Positions 3,301 to 12,300 of a stretch of DNA of 21,377 nucleotides are shown one piece after another. Made by a program: the position numbers. The stretch is from an uncultured bacterium. Its GTDB lineage: Bacteria > Caldisericota > Caldisericia > B22-G15. Each line of letters opens with the position of its first letter. The stretch's first letter is position 1. The stretch spans positions 1-21,377 of the forward strand of contig CBFDTJ010000020.1 in assembly GCA_965612865.1 (NCBI GenBank), given 5' to 3'.

Positions 3301-6300
3301 GTGACACACCTGGGTTTGAAAGTGTATGAGATTACTGTAGAAGTGGACATCTCCTCAGGGCTTCCATCTTTTACAATCGTCGGTCTCCCTGATGCTTCAG
3401 TTCAGGAAGCCAAAGAGAGAGTAAGGGCAGCTATAAAAAACTCTGGCTTTGATCTTCCTGTAAGAAGGATAACAATTAATCTTGCTCCTGGTGAGATAAA
3501 AAAAGAGGGTACGCTCTTTGATTTACCCATAGCCATAGGAATACTTGCTGCATCAGATCAAATTCCAAAGGACAGCGTAGTAGATTATTACTTTGTGGGG
3601 GAACTATCCCTTGAAGGAGAGCTCAGGAGGGTAAGTGGCGGACTTCCTTTATCCCTTTTCTTAAAGGGGAAGAATTTTGTAATTCCAAAAGGAAATCTTG
3701 TAGAGTGCTCCCTTTCAAAGGAGACAAGATTGTATCATTTTGAAAACTTAACTGAAGTTGTTCTGTTTCTCAGAGGAGAGGAACAAAGAGAACCTGTAGT
3801 GAATAGAGATATAGAATTTATAGATAAAGAGTTTGATTTAGACTTTTCAGATGTAAAGGGACATAGATTCCTAAAAAGGGCAATGGAGATTGCCGCAGCT
3901 GGAAAACATCATATAATAATGGTTGGGTCTCCTGGTTCAGGAAAGACAATGCTTTCAAGAAGGATGCCAACAATTATGCCTCCACTTGACTATGATGATG
4001 CAGTGGAGATAACAAAAATATACTCCATTGCTGGATTATTGAAAGATGGGGAAGATATTATAAAGGTGAGACCTTTTCGTGCACCTCATCACACCATATC
4101 CTATGCAGGACTTGTGGGTGGTGGAACAATTCCAAAACCCGGGGAGATAAGTCTTGCTCACAAAGGAGTTTTATTCCTTGATGAGCTTCCTGAATTTAGA
4201 AGAGATGTCTTAGAGGTTTTAAGACAACCACTTGAAGATGGATATATAACAATATCCCGGGTAAAAAGTAGCCTTGAATTTCCGTCAGATTTTTTACTTG
4301 TTGCGGCAATGAACCCCTGTCCCTGTGGTTACTATGGGGACCCGGAAAAGGCATGCACATGCTCTATAGGAGAGATAAAGAGATACAGAAGGAAAGTATC
4401 TGGACCGCTATGGGATAGGTTCGATATAAAATTAAAGGTGCCAAGACTTACAGATACAGAGATCTTTGAAAAAAAGGAAGCAGAGAGTTCGGAAAAGATC
4501 AGGGAAAGAGTTAAAAAAGCCTGGGAAATTCAGAAAGAAAGATACATTAAAGAGAAGATTAAATTTAATGGGAGACTAACTCCAAAACTTATCAAAAAAT
4601 ATATCCCCCTTACTGAAGAGGCTGAAAGGACACTCAAGAATGCGTTAAAATCATTGAAACTTACGCTAAGGAGTATGGACAAAATAGTGAAACTTTCAAG
4701 AACCATTGCAGATCTTGAAGGAGATGAAAAGGTAAATACTTCACACCTGCTTGAAGCAATAAGTTATCAAAGGTATTCTCTATCAGATGACATTTAAAAT
4801 AGTTGATTTAACTCATACAATAGATGAAGATATTCCAGTATTTCCAGGAGATCCACATATTAGAATTGAAAAGGTAAAAAATATAGAAAGAGATGGCTTT
4901 AACTTAAATTATATACATATGGGAGAACATACAGGAACACACATCGGAACACCACTGCATTTTATAAAGGATGGTTTTGACACATCAATGATTCCTTTGG
5001 AACTTTCACTTGTAAAATCAATAGTGATAGATATAAGTAAGAAAGCTCAGTTAAACAGAAACTATTTATTAAATATCTGCGATATAGAAATGTGGGAAAA
5101 AATTCATGGAGAGATAAGAGAAAAGTGCGCCCTTGTAAGGACAGATTGGGATAAATTCTGGAAAACGAAAGATTACCTTGGAATAGATACTCATGGAATT
5201 ATGCACTTCCCTGGAATAAAACCTGAGGCGGTAAGTTTTCTTATTAAGAAAGGAATCAAAATAATAGGAATAGATACTCATGGTATTGACGGTGGGATGA
5301 GTAAAAAATTCGAATCAAACAAAATCTTATTTGAAAATGGCGGCATACATATTGAAAATTTAAGAAACCTTGACAAACTTCCGGAAAGAGGTTTCTACAT
5401 ATTCTTGGGCTCATTGAAAATCAAAGGTGGTTCAGGTAGTCCCGCAAGAATTATTGCTCTTTTGGATACTTATGCTTATTAGTATAAACTCATCCTTAAA
5501 CAGGTTGTGTTAAAAACGATAAGACAAAGCAGCATTAAATATTAAAGAGAATAAAGCATAAAAACAAATTTACTGTTTCATTAATTACAGCTTTACTTCT
5601 TTTAACAAGGGTTTCTTATATATAAGAAGATTTCAAATTCTTCAAGCAATGTAAAAAGTGATGTATTTGTGGGGGAAGTTAATGGAGAGAACCTATCTTT
5701 TCGAATGTTATACTTCACTATTTTTGAAGATAAAGAAGAATTAAGAAAAGAGTTGATAGAGGAGTTAAGGAGTAAAGGGGATATAAAAATATTAAATATT
5801 AAATAAGGATAAGGTGATAAATTTAAAGAATGAAATTCCATAAAAAAATCCCCCTCCAATTCTGGAGGGGGAGATAATTTAAAGGTCACCCATTGTTAAA
5901 GCCATGACTGCCTTTTGAACATGGAGTCTGTTCTCTGCAATATCATAGATTATAGACTTTGGTGAACTTGCCACCTCATCAACCACTTCATTGTTCCTAT
6001 CCACCGGCATTGGATGAATGAAATATGCATCGTTTGTGAGCTTCATAAGTTCAGTAGTTAAAGTCCAGTCCCTGTGCTTTTCTGCCATCTCAATCTCAGC
6101 CTCTTTTCCTATCTCATATCTCTTTGGACTCATCCAGTTTCTTGCGTAAACAACATCTGCACCCTGAAGTGCCTTCCTTAAATCATTTAAATCTCCAGAA
6201 ATTATTTCAAAGTCTCCCCCTGTCTTTTTTGCGTTATTCTTCACCATATCCATGATCTCTGGATCGAGATCATATCCTTCTGGATAAACAAGTTTTATAT

Positions 6301-9300: not shown

Positions 9301-12300
9301 AACCCCGGTAAGTTCTTCTGGAAATTCAATGAAGTTTACACCATTGAAACCTCCCCCAAACTTTTTAGGTTCATTCTTCCAGGTAATTCTAAAAAGATTT
9401 CTTGGATGAAGATCCCATAAACCAATGTTTTTAAGTTCTTCCTTTATGCCCTCTGGAATCTTTTCTGGATTCCGCATTTCCTCATATGTGGGAATTATTA
9501 TGTTTTTCTCTCTTGCTCTCTCTATGGTTCTTTTTAAAACTTCTTCGTTTACTTTTAATTTCATACCTACCTCATAATAAGAGCCATTATTGCCTTCTGT
9601 GCATGGAGTCTATTTTCAGCCTCGTCAAACACAACAGATTGAGGACCATCCATGACCTCATCTGTTACCTCAAACCCTCTATCTGCTGGAAGGCAGTGCA
9701 TATAGATTGCATCAGGTTTGGCAATGGCCATCTTCTCTTTATCACAAATCCAATCCTTGTTCTTCTCAAAAAGTTCCTTTATCTTGGTAAAATCTGGCTT
9801 AGGAGATTCTGGTGGAATAAAATGCTTGCTCGTCCATGATTTGGGATAAACAATATCCGCATCTTTGAAAGCTTCTTTCATATCATTCACAATCTCAAAG
9901 CTTCCACCATACTTTCTAACATTCTCTTTAACAGCATCTATTATATTATCATCAAGCTCAAATCCCTCTGGATGAGCAAGAGTTATGTTTAAACCGAACT
10001 TTGAAGCAACGGTTATAGCGCTCTGTGGAACTGCAAGGGGTTTCTCAGGAGAGGGTGAGTATGCCCAGCTCATGACAAATTTCTTTCCTCTCAAATCTGG
10101 ACCTTTTTTCTCAATCATTGTCATAATATCTGCCATACCTTGACATGGATGATAGACATCATCTTCCATATTTATAACTGGAATATCTGCCCATCTGGCA
10201 AATTCCCTTATCATCTTGTCCGCTTCTCCATAAACCCAGTCAACTGGCTCTCCATAGCAACGGATTGCAATTGCCTCTCCCATCCTTGAGAGAACCCTTG
10301 CAACATCAGAAACTCTCTCAGTTGTGTAGGCGATCTCTCTCCCTGGAAGTGCAGGGGTATAAATCTTTTTTGGGTCAAGGAAGTGAGCATGCCCTCCCAA
10401 TTGAAACATTCCAGCTTCAAAAGAGTTTCTCGTTCTTAATGACTGGTTATAAAAAATCATGAAAAGGGTCTTACCATCAAGAAGCCTGTGTGGTTCCCCC
10501 ACAGCTCTCTTTCTTTTGAGATCAAAAGCCACCTCAAGAATTGTTTCAAGCTCCTCTTTAGTATAATCGAGATCAGTAATCCAATCCCTTCCTCTAAAGC
10601 TCTCAGTCTTCATTTTATTCCTCCTTTTCGTTGTTGTGTTATATGATTATTTTAAAACTCTCTAAGATTATGTCAATAAACTATCTTAAATACCAAAGGG
10701 GCCTCCACCTCTCTCTACAAGGGGAAGGAACATAAAAACTGTACCAAGAACTATAAACAATAAACCAAAGTTCGACTTATTAACAAGGAATATTCCCATT
10801 ATAAAGAAAACCACTCCAAATATTAAAAATTCTATGTTTCTTCTCTTTTTACTTTCCCTCATTTTAATCTCCTTCCTGTTTAGATTACAACATAATTATA
10901 CAAGAACCCCTCTCTTCTGAGAATATCTTTTTGAAACAAATTTGTTTCTTATTTGTATTATTTAATAAAAGGAGGAATTTTATGAGAAAAATTTATTTAA
11001 TTGTGTTCGTTTTGTTAATACCAATATTGTCTTTAAATTTTACCTATCTTGAGAAACTACCCTTTATAAAAATAAGTGGTGAAATAGTATCAGAGAATGA
11101 ATCAGAGTTTTCTCTGGAATTTGATAGAATGGGGTTTTTAATCCTGGACGGAAAGACTATAGATATATCAGGTGGAAACACTATTATGAGGGTTAAAAAA
11201 GAGGGAGATAGATTTAAAACAAACCTATATTGTGGGGATAGATTTGGGGTTGGAGCTAATGTATATGTGGAAATAAGAGAGATTAAGAGACCAGAAAAGT
11301 ACATGGTGCCGGGAAAGGATCTTTCTACATCTTTTGAATTTGATACAGATTCAATGGAGGTTAGTGTTAACATAAATCTCTATAATGAGCCCGTTGTGCC
11401 AATGGTCCTGGTTATAGATAATGGGATTGAAGAGAAAAGGATACCTGTAGAAAAGAGCATGAAAATAACAGAGAAACTTAAAGAAGGGGATAATAAAATT
11501 TATATAAGCACTTTTCTTAAACCACTGAATATTGAAATCTCCAGAACAGAGATCATAATAAACTTCAAAAAAATGGATGTTCTCAAATTAACTATAGGAA
11601 AAAAAGAAATGTGGAATGGCGGTAAGGTAAGTTTTATGGATACTTCGCCATTTATTATATCTGGAAGAACCTTTGTTCCCATTAGATTCGTTTCTGAAAG
11701 CCTTGGAGGAACTGTTCTATGGGACGGTGAAGAAAGGAAAGTCACTATAATCTTGAATGGTAAAACAATAGAAATGTGGATAGGAAAGAATTACGCTTAT
11801 GTAAACGGCAATTCAGTGCTTATAGATCCAGGAAATCCGGATATTACACCTTTTATCAAGGATGACAGGACTTTTGTTCCTCTTCGATTTGTATCGGAGT
11901 CACTGGGTATGAAGGTTATCTGGATAGGGAGCTTTCAAGAGATATTTATATTCAATCCCAATTAGAGAAGTCTATTAGCTCTCTCTTATCCACTCCATTT
12001 TCGTATGCATATTGAAGAGCATCTATCTGCATATTTTTGAGTGTATCTTTAAAATATGCACCCTTCTCCTTTAATTTTTCAACTCTTTCTATGACATCCA
12101 TAGCTATACTGAATCTATCAATCTGATTCATTATGGCAAGTTGCATGGGAGTTGTTATTCCACCTCTTCCCTTAAGGAATGTTGTAAGATAACTTGAGTC
12201 AATTCCGATCTTTCTGTTCTCTCTGTATCCCCTCACATGAAGATTCTCATGGTTTGTCCTTCTGTATGTTAGTCTGTGAATAAGCCATGGATAACCATGA

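What a model noticed while it worked through the whole genome (the two positions that open the first line are those of the whole stretch)
5879..10613. Reductive purine degradation without YgeX and YgeY: two carbamoyltransferases and a new PLP lyase family
The operon g00566-g00565-g00564-g00563 (two YgeW-like carbamoyltransferases, a 490-aa cysteine-synthase-fold PLP enzyme, carbamate kinase) is the lower half of a widespread variant of the 2,8-dioxopurine/uric-acid pathway. The g00565 family (with the 'threonine synthase' g00184) replaces the DAP ammonia-lyase YgeX, and a second carbamoyltransferase stands where YgeY would, which would let both ureido groups be harvested as carbamoyl phosphate.
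Evidence so far: Genome holds SsnA (g00227), HyuA-like (g00713), XdhD-like, PreTA-like genes but no YgeX or YgeY orthologue; the same in 9 of 9 family genomes, all of which have g00565. In 80 public loci of g00565 relatives: carbamoyltransferase 32, carbamate kinase 32, g00184-type 43, HyuA 23, Xdh 20, SsnA 16, YgeY 8, YgeX 1; 12 loci have both the g00566 and g00563 types and only one of those a weak YgeY. In 31 Anaerolineae-class genomes SsnA is in 24, g00565 family in 22 (20 both), YgeX in 0. Nearest solved relatives are cysteine synthases only.
(Added by a program. Inside this text positions count along the whole contig: contig position 1 is position 1 of the stretch shown here. "Call 12" and the like, gene names such as g00115 and contig names such as C1 are that model's own, and its searches are not shown. 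The text may have been shortened before it was handed on; [...] marks where a part breaks off. The agent that wrote the report below was given it as the finding of a first reader that could run no searches.)

Follow-up and report, generated by a model that had tools for sequence, protein, structure and literature searches.

The report
Two-carbamoyltransferase urate-breakdown operon
This operon is the energy-yielding end of the oxygen-free uric-acid breakdown pathway solved in gut bacteria in 2025, in a version where a second carbamoyltransferase appears to take the place of the usual hydrolase and may give a second ATP per purine; its vitamin-B6 enzyme is an extra, unstudied pathway member, not the stand-in for the final enzyme.

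Summary
The four genes are real and track the 2,8-dioxopurine pathway: among 51 genomes of this phylum the PLP gene is in 35, SsnA in 34, both in 33. Of 36 pathway genomes, 20 carry the g00563 type, 9 YgeY, 6 a pseudo-aspartate carbamoyltransferase and 1 none, with no overlap found, and YgeY and the g00563 type swap between identical flanks within one genus. g00566 groups with YgeW and keeps its substrate residues; g00563 has a rebuilt site. Against: three related genomes of another class hold both g00563-type and YgeY. The claim that g00565 replaces YgeX fails: in a 181-genome class, 25 of 26 genomes with YgeX also carry g00565. The threonine-synthase-like g00184 is the likelier substitute. 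g00565 is an extra cysteine-synthase-subfamily enzyme whose reaction, lyase or not, is open. Nothing is assayed. My paper searches found no description of this variant; this scan has reported it many times on other DNA.

The parts
10649..10676 (-). sigma-70-type promoter-like site (11 of 12 matches, 16-nt spacer) 35 nt before g00566
   Evidence: best of 19 sites against 14.7 expected, so a consensus match only
9567..10613 (-). g00566, carbamoyltransferase 1 (348 aa), short YgeW-type; SLRT/HPCQ/HCLP motifs intact
   Evidence: keeps YgeW S200, K203, K270, D334, E344 equivalents in 13 of 13 aligned orthologues
8092..9564 (-). g00565, 490-aa fold-type-II PLP enzyme of the cysteine synthase / cystathionine beta-synthase subfamily with N- and C-terminal extensions; K105, S133-T134-G135-N136, Q208, G248-S249-x-G251-T252 invariant
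6991..8076 (-). g00564, carbamate kinase (361 aa, 37% identical to E. coli YqeA; below all NCBIfam cut-offs; only copy found in the genome)
6929..6964 (-). terminator-like hairpin (14 pairs, T run) between the kinase and g00563; stem kept in a same-genus genome, no room for it in three genomes of the sister genus
5879..6895 (-). g00563, carbamoyltransferase 2 (338 aa), separate clade; SVRT/HPCQ/HPMP; candidate YgeY replacement
5849..5872 (-). terminator-like hairpin closing the unit

Best explanation
The operon is the ureido-cleaving, ATP-yielding end of the reductive (2,8-dioxopurine) purine pathway. Upstream enzymes elsewhere in the genome (Xdh-family reductase, PreT/PreA-type ring reductase, SsnA, HyuA-like hydrolase) give 2,3-diureidopropanoate (inferred). 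g00566 does the YgeW step: phosphorolysis of one ureido group to carbamoyl phosphate (inferred from tree, residues and context). g00563 phosphorolyses the remaining ureido group, the bond that YgeY hydrolyses in E. coli, giving 2,3-diaminopropionate (DAP) and a second carbamoyl phosphate (inferred from gene swapping). The kinase turns both into ATP. The threonine-synthase-like g00184 (contig C5) is the likeliest DAP ammonia-lyase and pulls the uphill steps. g00565 is an accessory pathway enzyme that forms an aminoacrylate from a free-alpha-amino C3 intermediate. My split for it: acts on the DAP enantiomer that the main lyase does not take (lyase or racemase) 0.35; eliminates urea from albizziin 0.25; beta-replacement with sulfide to cysteine 0.2; other 0.2. 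Shown: sequence, families, co-occurrence, tree, model. Not shown: every reaction.
For: Pathway link: 57 of 80 loci around g00565 relatives hold another pathway gene; in 51 phylum genomes g00565 35, SsnA 34, both 33, neither 15. Swap: among the 36 pathway genomes 20 have the g00563 type, 9 YgeY over cut-off, 6 the pseudo-ATCase, 1 none; no overlap found. All 9 YgeY genes lie directly before a single short YgeW-type gene. Same flanks, different cassette: G050 against G023 within one genus (L134, L135), and G005 against G001 (L131, L141). Tree: g00566 clade sister to E. coli YgeW plus the 326-aa type (UFBoot 84), g00563 clade separate (100); the short type sits with DpaL, HydA and YgeY in a canonical cluster. 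g00563 orthologues change Q98, Q160, K203, K270 equivalents to R, A, R, R in 16 of 16 while keeping the carbamoyl-phosphate motifs. Precedents: transcarbamylases that interconvert DAP and beta-ureidoalanine, and allantoate phosphorolysis by a pseudo-ATCase (PMC4581275, PMC4016543). g00184: 32 of the 36 pathway genomes full length, none of the other 15; YgeX 0 of 51; it follows YgfK-g00565 in L069 where YgeX does in L058; a separate thrC lies in a threonine operon; it lacks the Arg of the NPxRxEGQKT motif (that this Arg binds phosphate is recalled).
Against: Three related genomes (G238, G239, G241) hold the g00563 type, long YgeW, YgeY, g00184 type, YgeX and g00565 together, so neither substitution is strict. 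L071 and L072 hold YgeY and the pseudo-ATCase. In about 9 phylum genomes g00563's partner is a third clade that lacks S200/Q160 and groups with an enzyme from a pyrimidine-like cluster. G013 has SsnA and g00565 but no such carbamoyltransferase or YgeY; G006, G010, G011 lack g00184 (draft genomes). The pseudo-ATCase was sought genome-wide in only 11 of the 36 (4 more seen in loci). 18 of 47 g00565 genomes in the second class show no YgeY and none of 10 inspected loci from them has SsnA or YgeW. No SelD was found in this genome, though C. sporogenes needs it. Genomes are kin and drafts; the Fisher P of 1e-4 overstates. Which ureido group each enzyme cleaves is not settled.
Confidence: 0.6

Rival explanations
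1. One reading: the g00565 family is the YgeX replacement, a new DAP ammonia-lyase that arose where YgeX is missing.
For: YgeX in 0 of 51 phylum genomes while g00565 is in 35; aminoacrylate-forming residues conserved; 1 YgeX in 80 loci.
Against: 25 of 26 YgeX genomes in the class of G055 also have g00565; 29 of 30 YgeY genomes do. It sits directly beside YgeX in L058 and in the same cluster in L188-L191. DAP ammonia-lyase is a more distant fold match (Z 20.8, rmsd 3.1, 298 aligned) than the cysteine synthase group (Z 27-30, rmsd 2.5-3.0).
Confidence: 0.12
2. One phosphorolysis only: a carbamoyltransferase removes the 2-ureido group, g00565 eliminates urea from albizziin to give pyruvate, and the second carbamoyltransferase serves another ureide such as beta-ureidopropionate from pyrimidines.
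For: Li et al. report albizziin as the YgeW product (PMC12507026). The genome has two PreT/PreA pairs and no match to a nitrilase from a pyrimidine-like cluster. The third carbamoyltransferase clade groups with an enzyme in a preA-hydantoinase cluster. In four loci g00565 follows an amidinotransferase homologue, which hints at beta-N-substituted alanines.
Against: It does not predict the in-place exchange of YgeY for g00563 or the three-way exclusion, nor why g00184 tracks the pathway. g00565 is kept where YgeY and YgeX are both present.
Confidence: 0.15
3. g00566 and g00563 are subunits of one mixed trimer that does the YgeW step, and an unrecognised hydrolase replaces YgeY.
For: They are 43% identical and always paired in the 12 loci; some loci carry extra M20 genes (L022, L033, L115).
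Against: Both keep full catalytic motifs; g00563 pairs with three different partner clades, including long YgeW; no hydrolase was seen that is common to the g00563 loci; this genome's nearest M20 gene is PepT-like.
Confidence: 0.07
4. The database labels are right: g00566 is an arginine-biosynthetic N-acetylornithine carbamoyltransferase and g00565 an ordinary cysteine synthase.
For: g00566 passes NF003384 and its best solved match is Xanthomonas AOTCase; g00565 is the genome's only CysK/CysM homologue and is named cysteine synthase by some sources.
Against: The genome has a separate arg operon with an argJ-like gene and a canonical ornithine carbamoyltransferase; AOTCase falls outside the g00566/YgeW/g00563 group; g00566 lies beside carbamate kinase; g00565 scores 113 against a CysK cut-off of 351; both genes are missing from the 15 SsnA-negative genomes.
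Confidence: 0.04

Closest known systems
E. coli ygeW-ygeX-ygeY-hyuA-yqeA / ygfK-ssnA-ygfM-xdhD and C. sporogenes 2,8-dioxopurine pathway (10.1101/2025.04.24.650524; PMC12507026)
   Same: SsnA, HyuA-like, Xdh-family enzymes, a YgeW-type carbamoyltransferase and carbamate kinase are present.
   Different: No YgeY or YgeX; a second carbamoyltransferase; two other PLP enzymes; PreT/PreA instead of YgfK; genes scattered; no SelD found.
C. difficile variant (UacX, UacY) of PMC12507026
   Same: Shows that single steps are exchangeable between hydrolysis and phosphorolysis; PreA-type reductase.
   Different: That variant is fully hydrolytic (no ATP from ureido groups); this one would be the opposite pole.
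YgeW (YTCase), AOTCase and SOTCase, the knotted transcarbamylases (PMC4581275)
   Same: [quoted passage not shown]
   Different: About 50 aa shorter than YgeW, Q160 is E, D124 not kept; g00563 has arginines at three site positions and HPMP.
Pseudo-ATCases / ureidoglycine carbamoyltransferase (PMC4016543)
   Same: A pseudo-ATCase beside a ygeW homologue in a purine cluster was noted in Nocardioides in 2013; related genomes here use such an enzyme in the same slot as g00563.
   Different: g00563 is not ATCase-derived; no YgeY-replacement role appeared in the passages read.
Cysteine synthase / cystathionine beta-synthase / lanthionine synthase / SbnA subfamily
   Same: Core fold (TM about 0.8 over the target), Schiff-base lysine, TGN loop, GIG motif.
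   Different: 20-30% identity, about 170 extra residues, SHKVG/AHKVG instead of SVKDR, invariant HRxEGIGDKH loop.

Membership tests
2,8-dioxopurine pathway | SsnA marker in the genome | tested here: met
   C6:31630, 524 bits against 455.5
2,8-dioxopurine pathway | Xdh-family reductase, ring reductase, HyuA | tested here: inconclusive
   Homologues present (40% to XdhD, PreA over cut-off, 32% to HyuA) but below the specific cut-offs; substrate not testable
2,8-dioxopurine pathway | Carbamoyltransferase plus carbamate kinase | tested here: met
2,8-dioxopurine pathway (E. coli form) | YgeY and YgeX | tested here: not met
   Not found in this 87.6% complete genome or in 6 family genomes; control rings over cut-off
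2,8-dioxopurine pathway (C. sporogenes form) | SelD and YqeC | tested here: inconclusive
   SelD model 71 bits against 125; no YqeC hit; draft genome
2,8-dioxopurine pathway | Urate consumed, intermediates and ATP formed | not testable with these tools
   No assay
YgeW equivalog (g00566) | Curated score cut-off NF005538 / TIGR03316 | tested here: not met
   194 against 453; 189 against 500
YgeW-type site (g00566) | Proposed second-substrate residues Q98, D124, Q160, S200, K203, K270, D334, E344 | tested here: inconclusive
   5 of 8 kept in 13 of 13 orthologues; Q160 is E; Q98 and D124 lie in remodelled loops
YgeW-type site (g00563) | Same eight residues | tested here: not met
   2 of 8 kept
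N-acetylornithine carbamoyltransferase (g00566) | Score cut-off NF003384 | tested here: met
   317 against 288
N-acetylornithine carbamoyltransferase (g00566) | Gene in the arginine cluster; Trp77 and Lys302 | tested here: not met
   Beside carbamate kinase, arg operon on C28; Y and G at the aligned positions (features from PMC4581275)
DAP transcarbamylase (DPTCase) (g00563) | HDLP motif and (T/S)RWQTTG loop | tested here: not met
   HPMP and ARNWMS
Cysteine synthase CysK/CysM (g00565) | Curated cut-off | tested here: not met
   113 against 351
DAP ammonia-lyase YgeX (g00565) | NF006058 match | tested here: not met
   No match at 1e-3; one 46-residue segment to E. coli YgeX
Threonine synthase (g00184) | Score cut-off | tested here: met
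   315 against 303; 238 against 167
Threonine synthase (g00184) | NPxRxEGQKT arginine and place in a thr operon | tested here: not met
   Arg replaced; true thrC at C8:5253; role of the Arg recalled

The most novel reading that the evidence does not exclude
A fully phosphorolytic form of the reductive purine pathway exists, is widespread in environmental anaerobes, and arose twice (once from a YgeW/AOTCase-type enzyme, once from aspartate carbamoyltransferase), doubling substrate-level ATP from the ureido groups. The g00565 family catalyses an undescribed PLP reaction that most non-gut versions keep and E. coli lacks, such as urea elimination from albizziin or conversion of DAP and sulfide to cysteine. 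Because an ATCase-derived enzyme and an ArgE-family hydrolase share the second slot, the swap would point to the 2-ureido group being removed last, one of the two disputed orders.
Probability: 0.4. Interest if true: 0.75.

Novelty: new variant of a known kind. Interest (0 to 1): 0.6.

Why it matters
The 2025 papers disagree on which ureido group is cut first and leave open whether the pathway is ancient or a gut adaptation (PMC12990295). Three exchangeable enzymes for one step give a direct way to test the order, and the pathway's spread in Caldisericota, Anaerolineae, Bipolaricaulota, Atribacterota and Hodarchaeota loci argues for an environmental origin. A two-ATP form would change the energy balance of purine fermentation and is a candidate part for urate-lowering probiotics. 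The published neighbourhood survey scored YgeW, YgeY and YgeX by broad Pfam families (PF00185, PF01546, PF00291), which would merge these genes with the canonical ones; databases call them ornithine/acetylornithine carbamoyltransferase, threonine synthase and cysteine synthase.

Tried and rejected
No RNA holder was listed for the operon; this says nothing on expression. ESM Atlas gave only PALP clusters with automatic names. Solved-structure and fold searches gave no member of the g00565 family; the C-terminal 90 residues were not folded alone. An order-level search gave only 11 genomes (10 with g00565) and was not followed up. In one search IQ-TREE did not run and FastTree was used; one search is the IQ-TREE run on 50 of about 110 sequences, thinned by hand. 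SsnA in the 181-genome class is unreliable as a negative because only 8 candidates per genome were scored (8 over cut-off, 8 more at 320-345 bits). No complex prediction was made, as I claim no binding. Urease and CysE were not searched. Paper searches: dioxopurine/ygeX/ygeW/ygeY, 30 papers; albizziin+lyase+bacteria, 6 (72); ssnA+carbamoyltransferase+threonine synthase+purine, 0 (78); diureidoprop/yanthine/ureidomethyl from 2025, 9 (81); knotted+transcarbamylase+YgeW, 9 (82); Caldiseric+purine+carbamate kinase, 0 (83); diaminopropionate+ammonia-lyase+purine+cysteine synthase+anaerobic, 0 (105). None listed describes this variant; the library lacks most subscription papers and no supplements were read.
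Full report
Anatomy. The stretch holds four minus-strand genes: g00566 (9567-10613, carbamoyltransferase), g00565 (8092-9564, PLP enzyme), g00564 (6991-8076, carbamate kinase) and g00563 (5879-6895, carbamoyltransferase). A promoter-like site precedes g00566 and a terminator-like hairpin follows g00563. A second hairpin separates the kinase from g00563; three genomes of the sister genus have only short gaps there, so the four-gene unit is real but g00563 may be expressed at a lower level in this genus. 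The closest named relatives are Caldisericota. The genome is 1.42 Mb in 111 contigs, 87.6% complete.

Known pathway. I read parts 1-3 of 9 of 10.1101/2025.04.24.650524, parts 1-2 of 7 and passages of PMC12507026, the whole of PMC12990295, and passages of PMC4016543, PMC4581275 and 10.1101/2022.07.24.501321. No supplements were read; they may show variant clusters. Urate goes through XdhD, YgfK or UacX, SsnA and HyuA to 2,3-diureidopropanoate. YgeW phosphorolyses one ureido group, YqeA makes ATP, YgeY hydrolyses the other, and YgeX deaminates DAP. The two groups disagree on the order.

Pathway link. The genome has SsnA over cut-off, HyuA-like, Xdh-family and PreT/PreA genes, adenine and 8-oxoguanine deaminases, and no YgeX or YgeY. 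In 51 phylum genomes g00565 is in 35 and SsnA in 34 (30 over cut-off, 4 at 440-455 bits); 33 have both and 15 neither. YgeX is over cut-off in 0 of 51, with a positive control.

Second carbamoyltransferase. Among the 36 pathway genomes, YgeY is in 9, each time directly before one 326-329-aa YgeW-type gene. The g00563 type is in 20: 14 checked on fetched DNA, 5 by direct search, 1 same-genus genome by score. Six others have a pseudo-ATCase, which lacks the RxQ motif and has HSLP. G013 has none. No overlap was found, though the pseudo-ATCase was sought genome-wide in only 11. In genus g13, G050 has carbamoyltransferase-kinase-g00563 and G023 has YgeY-carbamoyltransferase-kinase between the same neighbours; G005 and G001 show the same exchange inside an SsnA-Ade-HyuA operon. 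In the 80 loci, 12 have the g00566/g00563 pair and none of these a YgeY at 39% or more; 15 have the pseudo-ATCase pair and 2 of these also YgeY. Counter-example: G238, G239 and G241 carry g00563-type, long YgeW and YgeY together.

Which enzyme is which. In an IQ-TREE tree of 50 sequences the g00566 clade is sister to E. coli YgeW plus the short type (84), g00563 forms its own clade (100), and Xanthomonas AOTCase lies outside both (76). g00566 orthologues keep five of eight proposed YgeW site residues; g00563 orthologues keep two and carry arginines at three positions. So g00566 is the YgeW equivalent and g00563 has another substrate. The AOTCase label of g00566 is misleading: the genome has its own arg operon and ornithine carbamoyltransferase. 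By analogy (inference), AOTCase acts on the side-chain amine of an N-alpha-acylated substrate and ArgE-family enzymes and ATCase act at the alpha-nitrogen, which favours 3-ureido first, 2-ureido second. About 9 genomes pair g00563 with a third clade, so the assignment is not airtight.

The PLP enzymes. g00565 is in 47, YgeX in 26 (24 over cut-off), YgeY in 30; 25 of the 26 YgeX genomes and 29 of the 30 YgeY genomes also carry g00565, often as Xdh-SsnA-like-g00565-HyuA with YgeX nearby. It is therefore an added member of the pathway, not a replacement. The g00184 type fits a replacement better: full length in 32 of 36 pathway genomes of the YgeX-free phylum and none of the other 15, in 2 of the 4 YgeY genomes lacking YgeX in the second class, and in YgeX's place in L069 and L196. 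It also occurs with YgeX in the three genomes above. It lacks the conserved arginine of true ThrC, which the genome has elsewhere.

What g00565 is. An alignment of 37 sequences (55-80% identity) shows an invariant lysine at 105, the STGN loop, Q208, the GSAGT phosphate loop and HRxEGIGDKH. The model (pLDDT 87.7; residues 282-295 under 50) matches cysteine synthases, lanthionine synthase, cystathionine beta-synthase, CmnB and SbnA at Z 27-30 and DAP ammonia-lyase at Z 20.8. These are largely beta-replacement enzymes (recalled), so 'lyase' is one option. It is the genome's only CysK/CysM homologue. In 18 genomes of the second class it occurs without YgeY; in four inspected loci it follows a glycine-amidinotransferase homologue, once with the g00184 type and a hydantoinase. 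This points to DAP or a beta-N-substituted alanine as substrate (inference).

Verdict. A real variant of a known pathway. Membership in the pathway about 0.9; g00563 replacing YgeY with a second ATP about 0.6; g00565 replacing YgeX about 0.1. Seven paper searches found no description (see Tried and rejected). Earlier notes of this scan report the same variant on other genomes; they are not independent evidence.

Noticed in passing
window 18845-21238: MoeA-like, MocA-like and XdhC genes (molybdenum cofactor maturation for Xdh-family enzymes) lie 8 kb from the operon.
   Followed up: partly
window about 10686-10862, minus strand: A short hydrophobic ORF of about 58 codons with a ribosome-binding site ends just before the operon's promoter-like site (read).
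   Followed up: no
L178, L183, L184, L195: g00565 orthologues (71-73%) directly follow a 380-aa glycine-amidinotransferase homologue, with an amino-acid transporter, a D-aminoacylase-like or a hydantoinase gene; no SsnA seen.
   Followed up: partly
L144 (Pusillibacter faecalis plasmid) 7319-19951: Cluster preA, amidohydrolase, carbamoyltransferase, LarA-family racemase, nitrilase, carbamate kinase; its carbamoyltransferase groups with the third clade of g00563 partners.
   Followed up: partly
L025, L028: Hodarchaeota archaea carry g00565 orthologues (59%) beside a 35% g00184-like gene.
   Followed up: no
L006-L009, L011, L014 and other Anaerolineales loci: A family-2 glycosyltransferase (18 loci) and a 190-210-aa ORF without Pfam match (18 loci) sit inside the purine cluster around g00565.
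   Followed up: no
G036:C22:64674-65680 and G008:C22:20775-22242: The g00566 orthologue of G036 and the g00565 orthologue of G008 are in two pieces; assembly error not excluded.
   Followed up: no
G000:C16:11227-12684: OrtB over cut-off: the genome also has an ornithine fermentation enzyme.
   Followed up: no
L145, L146: 40-41% relatives of g00565 on Rhizobium and Bosea plasmids lie among amino-acid transport genes, outside any purine context.
   Followed up: no
G014:C45, G012:C103, G010:C73, G006:C126: A further carbamoyltransferase group (39-43% to g00566), in two genomes near an SsnA-like paralogue.
   Followed up: no
window 11952-14339, 14702-17681, 4787-5482: By recall a phosphoketolase and a DtxR/FeoA-FeoB iron uptake pair (not scanned); a cyclase-family gene.
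   Followed up: no
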